DNA of 64,000 nucleotides from Octopus vulgaris (Eukaryota): positions 16,554,001-16,618,000 of the forward strand of contig OX597839.1 of the NCBI GenBank assembly GCA_951406725.2, given 5' to 3'. Positions 1,585-62,158 of the stretch are shown here, piece by piece. The position numbers were made by a program, and so were the translations under genes. Each line of letters begins with the position of its first letter. The stretch's first letter is position 1. The notes under the pieces were generated by a model, which saw nothing but the letters and a program-made list of their open reading frames with translations, searched no databases and was not told the origin of the DNA.

Positions 1585-1970
1585 AGGCGTAGGAGTGGCT
1601 GTGTGGTAAGTAGCTAGCTTACCAACCACATGGTTCCGGGTTCAGTCCCACTGCCTGGTACCTTCGGCAAGTGTCTTCTACTATAGCCTCGGGCCGACCA
1701 AAGCCATGTGAGTGGATTTGGTAGAGAAACTGAAAGAAGCCCGTCGTATATATGTATATATATATGTGTGTGTGTTAGTCCCCGCTAATATCGCTTGACG
1801 ACCGATGCTGGTGTGTTTACGTCCCCGTAACTTAGCGGTTCGGCAAAAGAAACCGACAGAATAAGTACTAGGCTTACGAAGAATAAGTCCTGGGGTCGAT
1901 TTGCTCGACAAAAGCGGTGCTCCAGTATGGCCACAGTCACATGACTGAAACAAGCAAACGAGTAAAAGAG
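1585..1970 (+). mobile_element. Octopus-type tRNA-derived SINE (head GGAGTGGCTGTGTGGTAAG...GGTTCAGTCCC)
   Basis: Pol III A/B boxes and internal microsatellite; other copies at about 2915-3335(-), 15680-15843(-), 22866-23262(+), 24805-25175(+), 26117-26550(+), 49030-49420(-), 55935-56285(+). Confidence 0.85.
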
Positions 1971-2050: not shown

Positions 2051-2093
<43 letters not shown>

Positions 2094-2097
<4 letters not shown>

Positions 2098-2780
2098 CAT
2101 AAGGGACATTAGCCAACCGAATATGGCTAGGGACAGGGCAGGGTGGTGGGGGTGTCACTGTTGCATTTAGCCCCAGGCGAACATCAACGTCACCAGATAG
2201 GCCGACACCATCACGGCGTCCTCTATCTTGCAAAGGGAGATCATTCCCCAAGAAGCGGATGCCACATACGGACCTAGGTTTCAAGGTGTATTGCCTATTA
2301 TCAACGTATGGTAGGCACCGCTTCTCGACGAACAACTCACAGTGCAAGATATATATAAAGATTTTCAAGTAAATACATTTACTGATTTCGAAAATCTGTT
2401 CGACAGCAATAATAATTCTCTAAATGAGATATAGACAGTGACTGCTCCATAACATAAGGGACATTAGCCAACCGAATATGGCTAGGGACAGGGCAGGGTG
2501 GTGGGGGTGTCACTGTTGCATTTAGCCCCAGGCGAACATCAACGTCACCAGATAGGCCGACGCCATCACGGCGTCCTCTTGGGGAATGATCTCCCTTTAC
2601 AAGATAGAGGACGCCGTGATGGCGTCGGCCTATCTGGTGACGTTGATATTCGCCTGGGGCTAAATGCAACAGTGACACCCCCACCACACTGCCCTGTCCC
2701 TAGCCATATTCGGTTGGCTAATGTCCCTTATGTTATGGAGCAGTCACTGTCTATATCTCATTTAGAGAATTATTATTGCT
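2094..2780 (-). mobile_element. Hammerhead-containing tandem/inverted repeat element (retrozyme or Penelope pLTR-like)
   Basis: 355-bp monomer 2094-2448, partial direct copy 2449-2579, inverted copy 2580-2780; (TA)n on both flanks; hammerhead at 2265-2310. Confidence 0.75.
2265..2310 (-). ncRNA. Type I hammerhead ribozyme motif
   Basis: CAUACG-UUGAUAA-uAGGcaauacaCCUu-GAAA-CCUAGG-UC^CGUAUG: 6-bp stem I, core boxes, palindromic stem III, GUC cleavage triplet. Confidence 0.8.
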
Positions 2781-3115
2781 ATATATATATATATAATCAA
2801 AATAAGCAACAAGGATATCCTTGTTGCTTATTTTGATTATAATCACCCCATTTTGAATTATATGGATAATACCATACTAAATTCTGGTGCCTTTAACTTA
2901 AGTACCATATTCTTTTCTTCTTTTAGTTGTTCCAGTCATTTGACTGCACCCATGCTGGAGCACCGCCTTTAGTCGAACAAATCGACCCCAGGCCTTATTC
3001 TTGTAAACCAAGTATCTATTCTATCCATCTCTTTTGCCGAACCGCCAAGTTGTGGGGACGTAAACACACCAGCATCGGTTGCCAAGCGAGGGTGGCGGGC
3101 GTGTGTGACAAACAC

Positions 3116-3172
<57 letters not shown>

Positions 3173-4849
3173 TACATACGACAAGCTGCTATCAGTTTCC
3201 GTCTACCAAATTCACTCACAAGGCTTTAATCGGCCCGAGGCTATAGTAGAAGACACTTGCCCAAGGTACCATGTGGTAGGACTGAGCCCGGAACCATGTG
3301 GTTGGGAAGCAAGCTACTTACCACACAGCCACTCTTGTTCCTCCTGTGTGTAGAGGCGCAATGGCCTGGTGGTTAGGGAAGCGGACTCGCGGTTTCGATT
3401 CCCAGACCAGGCGTTGTGAGCGTTTATTGAGCGAAAACACCTAAAGCTCCACGAGGCTCCGGCAGGGGGGGGGGCGATCCCTGCTGTGCTCTTTCTCACT
3501 CTTTCTTCTGTTGCTTAGCCAGCGGGGTGGCGTCATTTGAAGGCTAAAACAATACGAAGCGCATTGTGACCAGCGATGTGTAGCAACATTTGATAGCCTG
3601 GTGTGTGTGTGTATATAAATACACACACACACCTATTATGAATAATTCAAACAATTAATAGACCAATGGTAATGTCTAGTTTTTTTTAAAAATGTCGGAT
3701 TTCCTCCTCAAGGAAATCATTTAGAAAAAGGTCATGACGTTATAGTGACGCAGATGACTACGACAACAATAACCACCACCATGATAATGATGATGATGAT
3801 GATGATGATGACGACGTTGAAGTTGACAGACATTGTTACTGTACGTAGTCACAATTACATGCTTCAGTGACTATTAAATGTGTCATCTCATCATGTGTGT
3901 GTGTGAGTGTGCATGCGCGCACGCGGTTAAGTACTTCCCATCGACTAAACTGCAACTAGTCTTAATGGCACCATCATCAGCATTGCCATCATCGTCAGTC
4001 ATTGCCATCAGCAGCAGCTCAACCGCATCACCACCGCCACCTTCCTTACCACATCACCACCTCCAGCCGCAGCAGCAGTAGTAGTAGTAGCAGCATCACC
4101 TCCACCATTACCACCACTACTGGCTCTGGGTCTTTTATGTTTGGCTGCCACTTCTCAATTTCTTCAATTTTTGTTCCAACTGCTTTTATATTTGGTGTAC
4201 TGGTGTAGTTTTGTAAGGTAACCATTGTTATGAAATTCATTTCCCCCATAAATCAATAAATAGAAAGTTAATAGCTTTTAAAGTCTGCAAATGCTCGGAA
4301 ATTTTAGCCAATCGAAAGCCATAGACGTATAGGTGTCTGTTTCTATAGTAACAAGCCAAGCTATTACCTGTTTCTATAGTAACAAGCCAAGCTATTACCA
4401 AGCTGCTTACGCGGTCATTTTTTTTTTCTTGTTAAATGGTAATAGTAAGATGCGCTAAATATACTAGCTAAAGAGCCCTTAAATCACGCGTCAATTTTTT
4501 CCCCATAATTGTATGAATACCTATGTGTAGAATACAAATTCAGAAACATTTCCTGAAAATTCACCCAAAATTAAAGTAGATATGAGGGGTATATGGCGTA
4601 TGGGTACTTTTTTGATTCTCTCATCCCCATTAAAAAATTGGTTTATCTTCCCCAACAGAAAAAATTGTTTAACACTCAATAAAACAAAAAAAAAAACGAA
4701 AAAATTAATAAACATGAAAAATGAAAAGATTAAACATCTTACAGTTTTATATTTAAGAGATGATGAGGAATTATGTACATTATTTACATTCGACGGCTAT
4801 TTGTCCTCATCTTGGTTTGTTGTTAACACAACGTTTTGGTTGATATACC

Positions 4850-21503: not shown

Positions 21504-22820
21504 TAGGGGCAGGTGTGGCTGTGTGGTAACAAACTACGTTCGAAGATACTGTACTTGATATGGGCGGTAGTGCCTTGCCGGTCTATGGCCTACCTTCAAC
21601 AAACCGGGAAGGCACAAACACTCTGTCTTCACATTTGCTGCGTGAGACATGTTTTAATGTTGACGAGCTTGTCGAGTACATAGCCGACAATGAGCCAAAG
21701 CTCCTTCCAGAACAGAAGTTCGCTTACAACTCCGTTGTTAATTCAGTCCGGGCCAAAGCTGTGGGGATATTTTTCCTGGCCGCTCCTGGGGGCACTGGGA
21801 AAACTTTTGTCAACGAATTAATATTGGCTGAGATTAGGCGAACACAAGGCATTGCCTTAGCTGTGGCATCATCTGGAATTGCGGCTACTTTGTTGCCAGG
21901 CGGCAGGACAGCTCACTCCACTTTCAAGCTTCCGCTTGACTTAGCGAAGACTGAGACACCAACTTGCAACATCAGTAACAGCTCCGATCAGGCAGAAGTC
22001 TTCAGACGATGCAAGCTTATTGTTTGGGATGAATGCACGATGGCCCACAGAGACATCAAACACTCTTCAGCTCCCATGGGAGGCATAACACTTCTTCTTT
22101 CAGGGGACTTCCAACAAACACTTCCCGTTATTTCCAAAGGGACTACAGCTGATGCAGTAAGTGCGTGTCTTAAATCATCCACATTGTGGCCACTGGTGAA
22201 GACTTTCAAACTTCACACCAATATGCGTGCTCATATGCGACGTGATATCACATCAGCAGCATTTTCTCACACCCTTCTTGCACTTGGCAAAGGCAAAATA
22301 CCAGGGGATGAAAATGGTAATATTGCCATCGATTCCATTTGTACCATTGTTAAAACGCCTTCTGATCTCAGAGATGCAGTGTTCCCAGATCTACAAGCTA
22401 ATTATCAGAATATGGATTGGATTGGCCAAAGGGCTATTCTGGCCCCGAGGAATAAAACTGTTCACCATATTAATGATGAAATGCTAAAATTCATTCCTGG
22501 GGATGTCTATGTATATAAGTCTATCGATACAACTCCTGACCCAGAGGACGTCATCAACTATCCAATAGAGGTACTCAATTCCTTTGAGCACCCCGGACTA
22601 CCACCACACATTCTCAAACTTAAGGTTGGTGCCCCTATAATGCTCATTAGAAATTTGGTTCCCCCAAAACAATGCAATGGCACACGTTTGATCGTTAAGT
22701 TCTTATCTCCCACCGTAAACTTATATCAATATTTGCCTGAATAATCATCATAATTCAGTGCAATCATTAACAGTACTTTCAAGCAATTCAGCCTCGAGCA
22801 TCGCCGGGCAATTCTACTAG
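19493..22820 (+). mobile_element. Composite internally deleted Helitron
   Basis: A|TC start at 19493 (tentative); 3' GC hairpin at about 22791-22809 then CTAG|T at 22817-22820; carries the helicase fragment; 20455-20850 is shared with the element at 33853-34793. Confidence 0.7.
21560..22744 (+). pseudogene. Helitron RepHel Pif1-family helicase fragment
   Basis: APGGTGKT (Walker A), IVWDECTM (Walker B), LSGDFQQTLPV, LKVGAPIMLIRNL..CNGTRL; no Rep domain, C-terminus missing, apparent short in-frame deletion after MAHR. Confidence 0.88.
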
Positions 22821-26684: not shown

Positions 26685-26949
26685 AGTATAAGTCTATTAC
26701 ACAGACAAAAAGAGGACACTCAGTACACAATTAACAAGCATGCACACGCAAGATTTTGAACAGATTTCCAGTTACTTCAAATTACATATTTGTTCAAAAC
26801 CACAACAATCGCTGAAGCGTAGATAAAGGAAGTTGGTGTCTAAGTTTCCTATTACACAAATACTTTCTGTATAAGACATGCCTTAAATGATTTTTTTATA
26901 GAAATATAATACGTTGTTACGCACACCCAAATATTTATATACATAGATA

Positions 26950-29900
26950 AAGTAATTGAGGTAATCAGAGTATGTGACAGAATACTTAAGATTAGATTAG
27001 TGCTTCATCATAGTTTAGCAACCATTATATCAGCCTATGCTCCTCAGTCGGGGCTACCCGATGGACAGAAAGACCGATTCTATGACACTCTACTGCAGAC
27101 TACCTCGTTGACGAACGACAGAGACCTTATCTTTGTGGCTGGTGACTTCAATGGTCACGTTGGACGACATGCTGGGGGCTTCCATGGCGTACATGGAGGC
27201 TATGGCTATGGCTCCCACAACGAGGAGGGAACCAGGCTGCTGGAGTTCTGCGATGCAAATAATCTTATGATTTGCAACACTAACTTCAGGAAACCTACCA
27301 GCCACCTAGTCACTTACCAATCGGGCCAACATACCAGCCAAATTGACTACATCCTTGCAAGGCAAAGGGAGAGATGGCTGCTTATAAATGCCAAAACCTT
27401 CCCAGGTGAAGAATGTACCCCACAACATAGACTGGTAGTTAGTGACTTTAGGATCAGGACTAGGAGGACAACCAGAAGACGACAAATATGGAGAAGAAGG
27501 ATCTGGAAGCTTAAAGATCCTGCAAATGGACAGAGATTTAGGGACATATTACTTGAAGCCTCTGACGAAGTAGAAGGGGATAGAGCATCACAGGGGGTAG
27601 AAGACAGCTGGACGTTTCTAAGGGACAACCTGCTGAGAGCCACTGACCAGATCTGTGGCTTGTGCAAAGTCCCCTCTCGACCTAGAATAACGTGGTGGTG
27701 GAACAATATTGTAGACAGGGCTATTAGAGAAAAGAGACAGGCTTGGAAGGTCTGGAAAAATGGGGGTAGCAGGGAATTGTATCAGACTGCCAAAAGAGAA
27801 GCTAGGAGACAGGTTTATTTAGCCAGAGGGGAAGCAGATAAGAAAAAATTTGCCAATGTTCTGCGCCGTGAGGACCAAAGACTGGAGGTGTTTCGTGTTG
27901 CAAGACAGTGTGTGAGAGAGAATCGTGATGTGGTAGGAGAGAAGTGTGTTCGCATGGAAGATGGTTCACTTGCGCTAAATGAGGATGCAAAGAGAGAGGT
28001 TTGGAGATGCCACTATGAAAGGTTGCTGAATGAAGAAAATGAATGGGATAAAGAGAGTCTGCCGAATGTTGACCCAACAGAGGGACCAGCTATCCGAGTT
28101 GATAGTTCCGTGGTAGCTAAGGCAATTAGAAGCATGAAGACAGGGAAAGCCCCAGGCCCATCAGGAATCACTGCAGAGATGCTCAAAATGTCTGGTAGTG
28201 TCGGCTATAGCCTAGTCACCCGTATAGTTAATCAGGTGATACACAAAGGGGTCATACCCAATGACTGGTGTAGCAGTATAATAGTCAACTGCTACAAAGG
28301 TAAAGGTGATGCCCTAGATACAAATAACTACGGAGGTATCAAGCTGTTGGATCAGGTGATGAAGGTTACGGAGAGGGTCATAGCCCAACTAATTAGAGAG
28401 AGAGTTAGTTTAGATGAGATGCAGCTTGGGTTTGTGCCAGGGAAAAGTACTACTGATGCTATATTCCTGGTAAGGCAGCTGCAGGAGAAATACCTAGCCA
28501 AAGATAAGCCCCTGTACCTGGCTTTTGTTGACATGGAGAAAGCCTTCGACAGGGTTCCCCGATCCCTTATCTGGTGGGCAATGAGGAAACTAGGGATAGA
28601 TGAATGGTTAGTGAGAGCTGTGCGGGCCATGTATAGGGACGCTGCTAGTAGGGTGAGGGTTGGAAATGAGTACAGTGAAGAATTCCGGGTAGAGGTAGGG
28701 GTCCACCAAGGCTCAGTACTCAGCCCCCTCCTATTTATCATAGTCCTCCAGGCAATAACGGAGGAATTCAAGACAGGATGCCCTTGGGAGCTCCTCTATG
28801 CTGATGACCTTGCTCTAATTGCTGAGTCGCTATCAGAACTGGAGGAGAAGTTTCAGGTGTGGAAACAAGGATTAGAATCGAAGGGCCTCAGAGTCAATCT
28901 AGCTAAAACCAAAGTCGTAATCAGTAGGAAGGTAAACAAATCACAAACACCTTCAGGTAGATGGCCCTGCTCGATCTGTAGAAAAGGTGTAGGTAGAAAC
29001 TCTATAAGATGCACCAAGTGTAAGCTATGGACACATAAGAGATGCAGCAATGTCAAAGGAAGGCTAACTAGGAAGATGGTTTTTGTATGTGGCAGATGCT
29101 CAGGAACAATAAACACTGAAAATGCTCTGAGACCAACTTCCGTCACTTTCCAGGGAGAAAAACTAGAAATAGTTGATAGTTTCCGTTACCTAGGTGACCA
29201 AGTCAGCAGCGGGGGCGGGTGTGCTGAAAGTGTAACTGCTAGAGTAAGAATAGCTTGGGCAAAGTTCAGAGAGCTCTTACCTCTGCTGGTGACAAAAGGC
29301 CTCTCGCACAGAGTGAAAGGCAGACTGTATGATGCGTGTGTACGAACAGCCATGCTACATGGCAGTGAAACATGGGCCGTGACTGCTGAGGATATGCGTA
29401 AGCTCGCTAGAAATGAAGCCAGTATGCTCCGATGGATGTGTAATGCCGGTACTCACACTCGGCAGAGTGTAAGTACCTTGAGAGAAAAGCTGGACCTAAG
29501 AAGCATCAGTTGTGGTGTGCAAGAGAGACGTTTGCGCTGGTATGGTCATGTGGCGAGAATGGATGAAGATAGTTGTGTGAAAAAGTGCCACACCCTAGCG
29601 GTTGAGGGAACCTGTGGAAGAGGCAGACCCAGGAAAACCTGGGACGAGGTGGTGAAGCACGACCTTCGAACTTTAGGTCTCACTGAGGAAATGACTAGAG
29701 ACCGAGACCTCTGGAAGTGTGCTGTGCGCGAGAAGACCCGGCAGGACAAGTGAGTCCATAACCCGTGGCCTTCTACATGGGATGGAGCCAGCCTACGTAT
29801 GCATACCTTCCCTTCTTGGGACACAAAACTCTACTTGTGAAGACGTGTTGAGGCAAGTGAGGATCAGAATCGAAATCGATCAATGGAAATTGCGGATGTG

Positions 29901-36204: not shown

Positions 36205-36750
36205 TACGTTAATTTTTTGGCTCAAAAAGCAAAAGCAAGGCCATGTAGGAGGACATGGAGTTATGTACAGGGTGGTGTTCATGCAAAGAATTCAGGCCAT
36301 TTGTGGTCAAGGGAGACTTTGAACAAAGCAGTCATCGGCATCTTCACTATCTCGTTCCGGCAGCTTGTTCCACAGATCTGCAACCCGGAGGGAGAAAGCC
36401 CCTCTCCTTCGATTGAGATGAAATCGTCGCAGATAGAGCTTTTCGGAGTGACCTCGCAACCGACGCTCTGGAGCAGGAGTGAAGAACAGCTCTTTCGAGA
36501 GGTTACACTTTCCGCTTATGATGTTGTGAGCGAGAATGAGATCAGCACGGCGGCGGCGGCGTTTTTCTAGAGAATAAAGGTCGAGCGTCTTCAGCCTTTC
36601 TTCATAAGACAAATGCTTGAGACCAAGAACCATGCGGGTAGCCAGCTTCTGGACTCTTTCAAGATGATGTATGTCTTTGAGGAGATAAGGAGAAGAGGCT
36701 ACTTCTTTAACCCCTTGCAGATGGGAAGCGGTACTGACCACATTGAAACA
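36205..36750 (-). mobile_element. CR1-clade LINE 3' fragment
   Basis: SPYLLKDIHHLERVQKLATRMVLGLKHLSYEERLKTLDLYSLEKRRRRRADLI. Confidence 0.85.
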
Positions 36751-38159
36751 GTGTGTGTGTGTGTGTGCGAGTAGTGTGATGCCCCGCTCTGTGTGGCACC
36801 ATGTTTTCAAATCTACCATACTGAGAAAAATCTGTAAATACACTGTAGAATTCCTTGTATGAAGAATTATGAAAGCACAGCTCAAACAATGCTTGGGCTG
36901 ATGGCAGTCCCTTGCATTTTCAATGCCTGAGCCTGCAAGTTATATTTCACTTGCTACAGAGGATGTCTTGGAAAACACAGTACCTGGTCATTTCTTGGCA
37001 AGTCATGATCTGCCTTAATCAAAAACATGCCACAGATTATGTAGTTAGTGAACGGCCTAATACCAGGACACAGCACAGATTGTCAGTGCTAAATCCGTCA
37101 GCAAGGGGTTAATTCATATCTTGCAATTTGTGAGTAACAAGAGTTGTTGGTCATAGGTATCCAAGGAACAAATTTCTGGTTCACAGCATTTATGATGATG
37201 ATAATGAGAAGAAAGTCTATGGAACTCAGGTGAAACAAACATTACAAGGTATTTCTGTTTGAAAGCAATAATCATTGTTTCGCTGCCATTTACATCATAC
37301 AGCATTGGCATGGATCAGACGGTTTGACCTGGGCTGGCAAGCTGGAAGGCTGCACCAGACACCAGTCTGATTTGCCTTGGTTTTCTACAGCTGGAGGCCC
37401 TTCCTAATGCCAACCACTCCAAGAGTGTAATGGGTGCTTTTACCTGCTTCCGGCACAGGTGCCATTCGCGTGACACTGGTATCTGCCACAACTGCAATTT
37501 TGCTCAGCTTGTTGATGGGTCTTCTCAAGCATGACATAATGCCAAAGGTTTCAGTCATTACCTCTGTGAGGCCCAACACTGGGAAAATAACACATACACA
37601 CTGAAGCCACAGGCATAATTATGTAGTTAGGAAGCTCACTTCTCAACCACATGGCTTTGTGTTCAGTCCCACTGCAGAGCATTATGGACAAATATCATCT
37701 ACTATAGCCCTGGGCTGAGCAAAGCTTTGATTGAATGCAGGAGGCAAAAAATGACGAAAATAAGAGAAAAAAAAGAAGTTCAATGAACGTGTGTGAGTGT
37801 GTATAAGTTTGTACCAGTGTGTTTGTTTGCATTAACAGTCTACAAAATGGGGTACCAAAGAATCCCTTCTGCTGTCAACAAATTGCCTGCTCACTTTGCA
37901 GCTTTGATAATCTGTAAAACTATTCCTAACACCAGGAATGGGAAATGAGGCATTTTAGGATGAAGACAGTGAAGTAGAACTGGTTGGCAGGTTTAATCCT
38001 CAGCTCAGTTTAACAACACTACATAGGCATAGGTGTGGCTCTATGGTAAGAAGTTTGCTTCCAAACCACATGGTTTCAGGTTCAGTCCCAATATGTGGAA
38101 ACTTGGGCACATGTCTTCTATAGCCCTGCACTGATCAATGGTATTCGTAGGTAGAAAAT

Positions 38160-61039: not shown

Positions 61040-62158
61040 CTATAAACATTACAAAGAATTATGGACTGTCTTCCTCCAAGTGATGAATGGGAATAGTGGA
61101 TCCCTCACTTCTTCCTGAAACGGCAGTTCATCTCAGGTCGGTCATCAGCTCAACCACGTCCAAACTTAGAGAAGGCTGTTAATGCCAAATTCAGTGGATT
61201 TGACATTAAAAGGGCTGTTTGCCTTCTTTCCTCTCTGCCCTCCCTCATCCCTTGTACCACAGACTCCCTCAACCAACTGAAGGAGAAACGTCCTCCAGCC
61301 CCTCCAGATAATCACCTACACTGACCCAAACCACCAAATTTTCTACAACTCATCTTCACTCCTGACAATGTCAGGAGGGCAGTTGCCTCTTTTCCAGCAG
61401 GTTCTGGCGCTGGGATTGATGGCTTATGACCTCAGCATCTTAAGGGTGGTATCTCCCTGTCGGCTGGTGATGCTAAGCTTGAACTCTTGGAGAACCTAAC
61501 ACGAATCATAAACTTGTTCTTGTCTGAGAGTGTCCTTGCCTACAATCGTCCCCTGTTCTTAGGGACCAAATTATTTGGTCTCATCAAGCCCAACGGTGAC
61601 CTCCGCCCCATAGCAGTTGGTTGTACTTTGCGATGGCACACAACAAAAGTGTGCATGTCCTCAGTTTCTAACTGCCTAACCAAGGAATTTTACCTTATTC
61701 AGCTAGGAGTGGGAATTAAGCTAGGTTGTGAGGCTGCTGCTCATGCCACCAGGGCTTTCACCAACTTGCCCTCTGAATCCCGAAAGGTCATCCTCAAATT
61801 TGACCTTAAGAATGCTTTTAACTCGATCAGTCAAGACGTCATCCTCCACACAGTAAGGGAGAATTCTCCACCACTTTATCACTTTGCTTGGCAAGCCTAT
61901 CGGGAGCCCTTCGACCTCTCATTTGGTGACCACCTCATCCCATCTGCCTCTGGAGTCCAACAGAGTGATCCACTTGGTCCTGCCTATTTGCCATTGGGTA
62001 TTGATGATGTTACCAAGATGGGAGCTGACCTAGACCTAAATGTCTGGTACCTCATTGATGCTTGTTTGGGAGGCCCTCCTGACAAGGTGCTTGCAACTGC
62101 AAGGACAATGATCAAGGAACTTGGTCGTAGAGCCTCCAGCTGTATGAAAATTTCCTGA
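61040..62158 (+). pseudogene. Degenerate CRE-like non-LTR retrotransposon RT
   Basis: LRPIAVGCTLR, QLGVGIKLGCEAAAH, KFDLKNAFNSI, SGVQQSDPLGP; catalytic YLDD decayed to YLID. Confidence 0.75.

What the first reader, a model, noticed from the sequence alone, without database searches (positions are those of the whole stretch)
2094..2780. Candidate retrozyme: 355-bp tandem monomer carrying an intact type I hammerhead ribozyme
Seen: a non-coding 355-bp unit (2094-2448) is repeated directly (2449-2579) and bounded by (TA)n on both sides. Its minus strand contains a complete hammerhead at 2265-2310 with a predicted cut after GUC, between 2271 and 2270. Established: animal non-LTR retrozymes are short tandem monomers with one type I hammerhead each, processed into monomeric and circular RNAs, and thought to be mobilised by Penelope-like elements. 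Inference: this is a young, microsatellite-targeting cephalopod retrozyme family that would yield ~355-nt circular RNAs. I cannot tell whether it has been described.
Basis: partly seen in the sequence, partly recalled or inferred. Interest (0 to 1): 0.9.

Follow-up and report, generated by a model that had tools for sequence, protein, structure and literature searches.

The report
Self-cutting RNA repeat rides Penelope retrotransposons
This is one copy of a family of short, protein-free repeats, over 2,000 of which carry a hammerhead ribozyme motif in this genome; they are inserted with the signature ends of Penelope-like retrotransposons, and hybrid copies joined exactly at two predicted cut sites suggest that ribozymes of this lineage likely cut inside living cells.

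Summary
Real, and richer than reported. It holds only one hammerhead, with a non-consensus U3-A8 core, so this locus cannot release a unit circle by itself.

It belongs to a lineage with 2,059 hammerhead motifs genome-wide. The 3-8 pair covaries (only 8 motifs are C3·A8), loop III stays self-complementary (442 of 453), and a sister family has the canonical core. None of 124 classed insertions is joined to an ORF. 79 of 84 head-to-head insertions have one tailed and one untailed end, as do two co-resident Penelope-like elements (PLEs): the PLE signature.

New: three insertions join a sister family's RNA end to a PLE's 3' end exactly at both predicted cut sites (shifted controls: 0). At least two arose independently, likely fossils of in vivo cleavage and joining.

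Verdict: new member of the non-LTR retrozymes. Circular RNA and cleavage by this copy are untested. The scan had not noted this family before.

The parts
2054..2093 (.). (TA)n target microsatellite, left
   Evidence: 181 of 208 family 3' ends adjoin a TA run
2094..2448 (-). Full 355-nt unit (subfamily A); its untailed 3' end is at 2094
2250..2325 (-). Type I hammerhead with extended stem I, UAC bulge, stem II AGG/CCU closed by U·U, loop II CAAUACA
   Evidence: 95% of cells paired, 6 pairs with changes on both sides
2298..2304 (-). Catalytic core UUGAUAA (U3 at 2304, A8 at 2299): compensated U3-A8 variant
2272..2279 (-). Self-complementary stem/loop III ACCUAGGU, predicted to pair between two ribozymes
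   Evidence: 442 of 453 self-complementary; self-duplex -11.4 kcal/mol
2270..2271 (-). Predicted scissile bond, after GUC
   Evidence: the homologous bond is the exact joint in family-D chimeras
2449..2579 (-). 5'-truncated upstream copy (unit positions 225-355), no hammerhead
2577..2736 (+). Inverted arm (unit positions 196-355), no hammerhead; 3-nt overlap at the head-to-head junction
2737..2780 (+). 44-nt tail (unit positions 1-44): the optional PLE-type 3' extension
2781..2795 (.). (TA)n target microsatellite, right

Best explanation
This is one insertion of a protein-free, hammerhead-bearing tandem repeat (a non-LTR retrozyme) that was likely copied into a (TA)n run by the reverse transcriptase-endonuclease of a co-resident Penelope-like element. 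Steps: (1) a multi-unit copy is transcribed (inferred). (2) Paired hammerheads cut after GUC (indicated for sister family D by the chimeras; inferred for this subfamily). (3) The ends are joined into a 355-360-nt circle, likely by RtcB (inferred, about 0.6). (4) The PLE protein nicks both strands of (TA)n and starts DNA synthesis at two fixed points 44 nt apart, one per strand (the two ends and their one-of-each pairing are shown; the enzymology is inferred). (5) Each cDNA runs a variable number of units, passes the cut site without stopping, and the two are joined head to head, often at short overlaps (shown as sequence). This copy kept one ribozyme and is probably a dead end for circle production.
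For: Hammerhead: covariation over 9 natural units, 0 of 500 shuffles as high. 8 of 2,059 motifs have non-pairing C3·A8. Seven common self-complementary loop III types; 442 of 453 motifs self-complementary. Canonical CUGACGA core at the same place in family E. The tree shows U-A, U·G and C-G states, with C-G reached twice. No ORF joined in 124 insertions. PLE signature: 79 of 84 head-to-head insertions tail/untailed, 0 tail/tail; PLE1 6 clear and 1 unclear of 7; PLE2 26 of 29. Both PLEs encode RVT_1 plus GIY-YIG and carry odd hammerheads of their own. Independent arms: 25 of 80 do not fit simple fold-back; arm lengths uncorrelated. One template per insertion: variants present in all units 128 against 16 partial in B, 305 against 10 in A; arrays exceed 21 units. 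5' ends show no pile-up at the cut (4 against 2.3 expected of 208; 6 against 7 at +3). In vivo cutting: 3 insertions joined at both predicted bonds; 0 such joints at +3 and +6.
Against: No cleavage assay and no RNA evidence of a circle. Rfam does not call the motif. In the monomer the hammerhead fold is 6.2 kcal/mol above a competing fold. No parent PLE found: no significant DNA match between units A, B, D, E and the three PLEs examined, so the helper is not identified. Families C and D spread with a U3·G8 core, which suggests fast cleavage is not needed. In a lizard PLE, ribozyme mutants still insert in vitro (PMC11167929). Some arrays are mosaic (L231, L234; L317 has one variant in two adjacent units), which a single circle does not explain. 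Chimeras were found only for family D, not for this subfamily. A 9-nt duplication I first used to separate the chimeras differs between arms in 12 of 29 PLE2 insertions, so only two of the three joins are firmly independent.
Confidence: 0.85

Rival explanations
1. Same element and same PLE helper, but the template is an uncut read-through transcript of a tandem source copy; the ribozyme cuts only occasionally and no circle is needed.
For: Uncut RNA is the main substrate of a lizard PLE in vitro (PMC11167929). No 5'-end pile-up at the cut fits this too. Subfamily A arms never reach 3 units (0 of 76). Mosaic arrays exist.
Against: Family variants are shared by all units and both arms of an insertion, which needs repeated single-unit bottlenecks and re-expansion. 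No two of the 85 head-to-head junctions listed repeat the same pair of break points, apart from near-matches at one fold-back palindrome. Arrays exceed 21 units.
Confidence: 0.3
2. The U3-A8 ribozyme of this subfamily is catalytically dead; what is conserved is a long hairpin used for protein binding.
For: Non-consensus core, U·U at the base of stem II, competing fold favoured, no Rfam hit. Stem I covariation alone fits any hairpin.
Against: The 3-8 pair and loop III self-complementarity are hammerhead-specific. U3-A8 recurs across lineages and in Schistosoma PLEs (PMC4209133). U10.1·U11.1 is tolerated (PMC3088659, PMC7229834). PLE2 has the same UUGAUAA core and supplies a piece that starts exactly at its predicted cut.
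Confidence: 0.15
3. The units are solo pseudo-LTRs, that is 5'-truncated remains of an autonomous Penelope-like element.
For: Same ends, target and inversion pattern as PLEs. In Xenopus, retrozymes are related to pLTRs (10.64898/2026.07.22.740005). Only part of about 3,400 units was inspected.
Against: Units follow each other head to tail with nothing between. Nearby PLE fragments are separated by (TA)n or lie in the other orientation. Pairs of units spaced 1.6-6 kb apart were local duplications or separate copies without a PLE ORF between them.
Confidence: 0.06
4. The chimeras are template jumps by the PLE reverse transcriptase between two cleaved RNA ends, not ligated RNAs. This is a rival for the joining step only; it still needs both ribozymes to cut in vivo.
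For: End-to-end jumping is known for R2-type reverse transcriptases (recalled). DNA cannot tell a jump from a ligation.
Against: The joints have no added or lost base in 4 of 5 arms, and the fifth lacks one A of a run. RtcB joins such ends in retrozymes (PMC7229834) and in U6/L1 chimeras (PMC6789731).
Confidence: 0.35

Closest known systems
Metazoan non-LTR retrozymes (Cervera and de la Peña 2020, PMC7229834): mussel 350-390 bp, axolotl Rtz_353 with HHR_Amex2
   Same: Non-coding tandem units of about 350 nt, GC under 50% (0.45-0.47), one type I hammerhead per unit, 2-bp stem III with tetraloop, U·U at the base of stem II as in HHR_Amex2, co-resident PLEs.
   Different: U3-A8, U3·G8 and U4C cores. 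Head-to-head insertions with a PLE tail and (TA)n targeting were not in the sections I read. Expression and circles are untested here.
EN+ Penelope-like elements with a CX4CXXC linker (Neptune/Nematis type by the motif in PMC8557442); PAc of Anolis (PMC11167929)
   Same: 5' truncation, partial tandems, inverted 5' arm, optional tail from two start sites, AT-rich targets, hammerhead near the 3' end.
   Different: No ORF; 355-nt unit instead of about 4.3 kb; no detectable DNA homology to the three PLEs examined.
Xenopus retrozymes derived from PLE pLTRs (bioRxiv 10.64898/2026.07.22.740005)
   Same: Non-autonomous partner of PLEs.
   Different: There the link is sequence homology to pLTRs and co-occurrence; here it is insertion anatomy and cut-to-cut chimeras, with no homologous pLTR found.
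U6/LINE-1 chimeras made by RtcB (PMC6789731)
   Same: An RNA ending in a cyclic phosphate joined to a 5'-OH retroelement RNA and then retrotransposed would give the same kind of hybrid.
   Different: Here both ends would be made by ribozymes, and ligation is inferred, not shown.

Membership tests
Non-LTR retrozyme | Short (150-450 bp) head-to-tail units, non-coding, no LTR, PBS or PPT | tested here: met
   355-360-nt units in arrays of 1 to over 21; no joined ORF. PBS and PPT were not searched for separately.
Non-LTR retrozyme | One type I hammerhead per unit | tested here: met
Non-LTR retrozyme | [quoted passage not shown] | tested here: inconclusive
   Not met by this locus (one hammerhead); met by 21 of 77 subfamily A and 18 of 29 subfamily B insertions
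Non-LTR retrozyme | Self-cleavage in vitro | not testable with these tools
   Indirect only: chimera joints for family D and PLE2
Non-LTR retrozyme | Expressed as monomeric linear and circular RNA | not testable with these tools
   Only contigs were available
Type I hammerhead | Core C3 U4 G5 A6 N7 G8 A9 / G12 A13 A14 / A15.1-U16.1, H17 | tested here: inconclusive
   This copy departs at C3U and G8A together, a covariation reported in PMC4209133; all other core positions match; sister family E matches fully; no Rfam hit
Type I hammerhead | Three helices with compensatory changes; palindromic loop III | tested here: met
PLE-type insertion | Fixed 3' ends with optional 30-45-nt tail, 5' truncation, inverted 5' arm | tested here: met
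PLE-type insertion | AT-rich or microsatellite target | tested here: met
   181 of 208 3' ends against 13 of 38 5' ends adjoin a TA run
Autonomous PLE or its pLTR | RT plus GIY-YIG ORF joined to the repeat | tested here: not met
   0 of 124 classed insertions; none seen in further loci of families D-F

The most novel reading that the evidence does not exclude
Hammerheads of both retrozymes and autonomous Penelope-like elements cut in the germ line, and their cut ends are ligated to each other, so ribozyme sites act as exact swap points that build new mobile elements. A dimeric PLE enzyme then copies one RNA circle from two fixed start sites, one for each nicked DNA strand.
Probability: 0.45. 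Interest if true: 0.8.

Novelty: new member of a known kind. Interest (0 to 1): 0.62.

Why it matters
Retrozymes are known, but two points were open in the papers I read. PLEs were proposed as their mobilisers from co-occurrence and pLTR similarity (PMC7229834; 2026 preprint). [quoted passage not shown] This genome offers sequence evidence on both: the exact PLE end signature on ORF-less units, and chimeras joined at both scissile bonds. It also supplies a natural series of core variants (U-A, U·G, C-G, U4C) and very young intact PLEs for a direct test of rolling-circle copying.

Tried and rejected
Rfam: no hammerhead at the locus or in families B, E, F; only a weak HH9 match (E 0.75) at a PLE in L266. 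The miRNA hits come from the inverted arm.

Expression: no RNA holder listed. Contigs of 4 of the 24 listed runs were laid and cover the unit, but two are only guessed to be RNA and contigs cannot show a circle or an end; not used as evidence.

Parent pLTR: none in PLE1, PLE2 or the L369 PLE. A 12-nt match near PLE1's stop codon is antisense with E 0.5-7.7 and was rejected. An apparent PLE2 match was a separate distant unit downstream.

Widely spaced unit pairs as ORF-flanking pLTRs: rejected.

RT run-off at the cut: no excess.

More chimeras: none in 30 of 46 hits viewed for a joint followed by C; no reciprocal PLE-to-retrozyme joint in 12 and 4 hits. Families with other loop II sequences were not covered.

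Three donor haplotypes as proof of three independent joins: reduced to two, because the 9-nt duplication is labile.

Rows left out of counts: L225 (degraded), L090 (complex), L230 (runs off the fetched stretch), as set in each script. Earlier scan notes: nothing on this genome or sequence; one unrelated rotifer note.

Full report
THE LOCUS. Window 2094-2780 lies between two (TA)n runs. Read on the minus strand it is a 5'-truncated copy (2449-2579, unit positions 225-355) followed by a full 355-nt unit (2094-2448). On the plus strand, 2577-2736 is an inverted copy of positions 196-355 followed by positions 1-44 at 2737-2780. Only the full unit contains the hammerhead.

THE RIBOZYME MOTIF. Minus-strand 2265-2310 reads as stem I (6 bp), core UUGAUAA, stem II closed by U·U, GAAA, a 2-bp stem III with a palindromic loop, and GUC, with the cut at 2271/2270. 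The core differs from CUGANGA at two positions that pair (U3-A8). Rfam finds no hammerhead. The exact core occurs 151 times in the genome, the reversed control 0 times. Following relatives gave a lineage: B (360 nt, core CCGAYGA, 1,238 motifs), C (UUGAYGA), D (about 72% to A), E (canonical CUGACGA) and others. A broader pattern counts 2,059 motifs, of which 8 have the non-pairing C3·A8; a 3' motif counts 3,432 units. On 9 natural units, 95.3% of cells pair and 6 of 19 pairs change on both sides; no shuffle of 500 reaches the covariation score, though the tool warns that related sequences can beat that control. Loop III is self-complementary in 442 of 453 motifs held, over seven common sequence types. 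A tree of 59 units shows U3-A8 spread widely, U3·G8 next to it, and C3-G8 reached twice, in B and E (midpoint root, for drawing only). U3-A8 was reported in Schistosoma PLEs (PMC4209133); U10.1·U11.1 and U4C are reported as tolerated (PMC3088659, PMC7229834). Against activity: the hammerhead fold is 6.2 kcal/mol above a competing fold in the monomer, while the loop III self-duplex is -11.4 kcal/mol, so a dimer is the likely active form.

NO ATTACHED ORF. I classed 124 distinct insertions: 77 of A, 40 of B, 7 of C. None is joined to an ORF. PLE fragments near some copies are separated by (TA)n or face the other way. One such fragment led to PLE1, a 4.27-kb element with a 775-aa stop-free frame, RVT_1 (just under Pfam's cut-off) plus GIY-YIG, and at least 150 copies 99-100% identical. 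PLE2 has a 784-aa frame, 47% identical to PLE1. Both have the CX4CXXC linker of the Neptune/Nematis type (motif from PMC8557442; no tree was made). Both carry odd hammerheads: PLE1 has C4 and U·U like subfamily B; PLE2 has the same UUGAUAA core as the window, with GCAA in place of GAAA. Neither shows DNA homology to the units, so the helper and the parent are not identified.

PLE SIGNATURE. 3' ends fall at unit position 350-355 or 44 nt further on; 181 of 208 adjoin a TA run, against 13 of 38 5' ends. Of 84 complete head-to-head insertions, 79 have one tailed and one untailed end, 1 has two untailed ends, 0 have two tails, and 4 have a damaged end. PLE1 shows the same in 6 clear cases of 7 and PLE2 in 26 of 29. 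A tail on one end is described for PLEs (PMC8557442, PMC3846280) and traced to two reverse-transcription start sites by a protein that cuts and extends both strands (PMC11167929). Arm lengths are equal in median and uncorrelated, and 25 of 80 insertions, this one included, cannot be a simple fold-back copy of either arm. 49 of 85 junctions overlap, most by a few bases. I infer two cDNAs, one from each nicked strand, each from its own start site.

TEMPLATE. 5' ends are spread around the unit with no excess at the cut (4 against 2.3 expected among 208; genome-wide 6 at the cut against 7 at +3). So the template was uncut or re-joined. Variants are mostly shared by every unit of an insertion (B 128 all, 16 some, 202 single; A 305, 10, 264), and arrays exceed 21 units. 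That fits repeated copying of one circle, as proposed in PMC4209133 and PMC7229834. It does not exclude an uncut tandem transcript: A arms never reach 3 units (0 of 76, against 7 of 29 in B), and a few arrays are mosaic. I put the circle at about 0.6.

CHIMERAS. A search for cores followed by foreign sequence right after GUC gave 8 hits: 3 were point or indel variants, 5 were arms of three insertions, one of which lies in a local duplication (L341/342, L343/344, L347). In each, family D sequence ends at GUC and continues with the 3' end of PLE2, starting at the base after PLE2's own predicted cut. The bases next to the joint differ between the parents, so microhomology does not explain it. The same search shifted by +3 and +6 gave 0 and 1 hits, the latter a 2-nt deletion. 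L347 carries a stable PLE2 insertion haplotype that the others lack; the feature separating L341 from L343/344 on the PLE2 side is labile (12 of 29 insertions differ between arms), leaving one D-side base. So at least two joins are independent. The partner's break point was not selected by my search, which is why the double match is strong. The likely reading is that both ribozymes cut in vivo and the ends were ligated, as for U6/L1 (PMC6789731), or jumped by the reverse transcriptase. This is shown for family D and PLE2, not for the window's subfamily.

WHAT THIS COPY DOES. With one ribozyme it cannot release a unit. A transcript across it would fold a 175-bp hairpin, a likely silencing or editing substrate (inference).

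LITERATURE SEEN. PMC7229834: passages and parts 3-4 of 6; supplement unreadable and may list cephalopod examples. PMC4209133: parts 1-2 of 4; supplements searched, no octopus, squid or cephalopod, one file not searched. PMC11167929: parts 1-2 of 4. bioRxiv 10.64898/2026.07.22.740005: parts 1-3 of 5, supplements not seen; 35 genomes sampled (31 vertebrates, 3 insects, 1 coral). PMC8557442, PMC3088659, PMC3846280, PMC7151607, PMC6962438 (235 Rfam hammerhead hits in giant squid), PMC13282606 (no hammerhead or retrozyme in text or supplement): passages only. PMC6789731: abstract, start of introduction, section list. Searches for this family and for such chimeras listed no paper that describes them, judged mostly from titles and abstract starts. 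The library lacks most subscription journals and Repbase, so absence from print is not established.

VERDICT. A new member of the non-LTR retrozymes, confidence 0.85 for the class and PLE mobilisation, about 0.6 each for the circle and for activity of this copy's core. The added interest lies in the end rule and the cut-to-cut chimeras.

Noticed in passing
L131 (G000:C3:5852600-5862500) and one search list: PLE1: a very young autonomous Penelope-like family, 4.27-kb unit, 775-aa stop-free frame, at least 150 copies 99-100% identical, with a hammerhead in its 3' UTR.
   Followed up: partly
L382, L393, L395, L399, L402, L407/408: Several PLE2 copies have small deletions just before the predicted cut, or arms that begin at or next to it; may reflect cleavage and repair. 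No shifted control was run.
   Followed up: partly
L343/344, L341, L347: All three chimeras lose family D sequence at about unit position 128-131, inside the long stem I and at an ACCGGT palindrome; a stall or fold-back site.
   Followed up: no
L231, L234, L317: Mosaic arrays: variants in some but not all units; may be gene conversion, mixed templates or assembly error.
   Followed up: partly
L083, L128, L241, L244: Retrozyme copies and PLE1 ends share the same (TA)n run, consistent with a common target.
   Followed up: partly
B versus A arrays, E array L310: The two families with a C3-G8 core have the longest arrays seen (B over 21 units, E about 7); age and ribozyme strength are confounded.
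   Followed up: partly
window 10287, + strand: A second hammerhead-like motif with a canonical CUGAUGA core and long stem III found by my scan; may be chance.
   Followed up: no
window 26910-29753 +, 21530-22744 +, 61430-62158 +, 36307-36939 -: Long stop-free frames that read like a LINE endonuclease-RT (947 aa), a PIF1-type helicase and RT fragments (names from recall, not searched).
   Followed up: no
window 1593-1969 and 2911-3334: Two copies of a SINE-like repeat in opposite orientation flank the element.
   Followed up: no
window 2795-2841: A near-perfect palindrome of about 46 nt right after the right (TA)n run.
   Followed up: no
L479:5509-5790, - strand: A distant (about 70%) member of the retrozyme lineage with a decayed core, showing the lineage is older than the young subfamilies.
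   Followed up: partly
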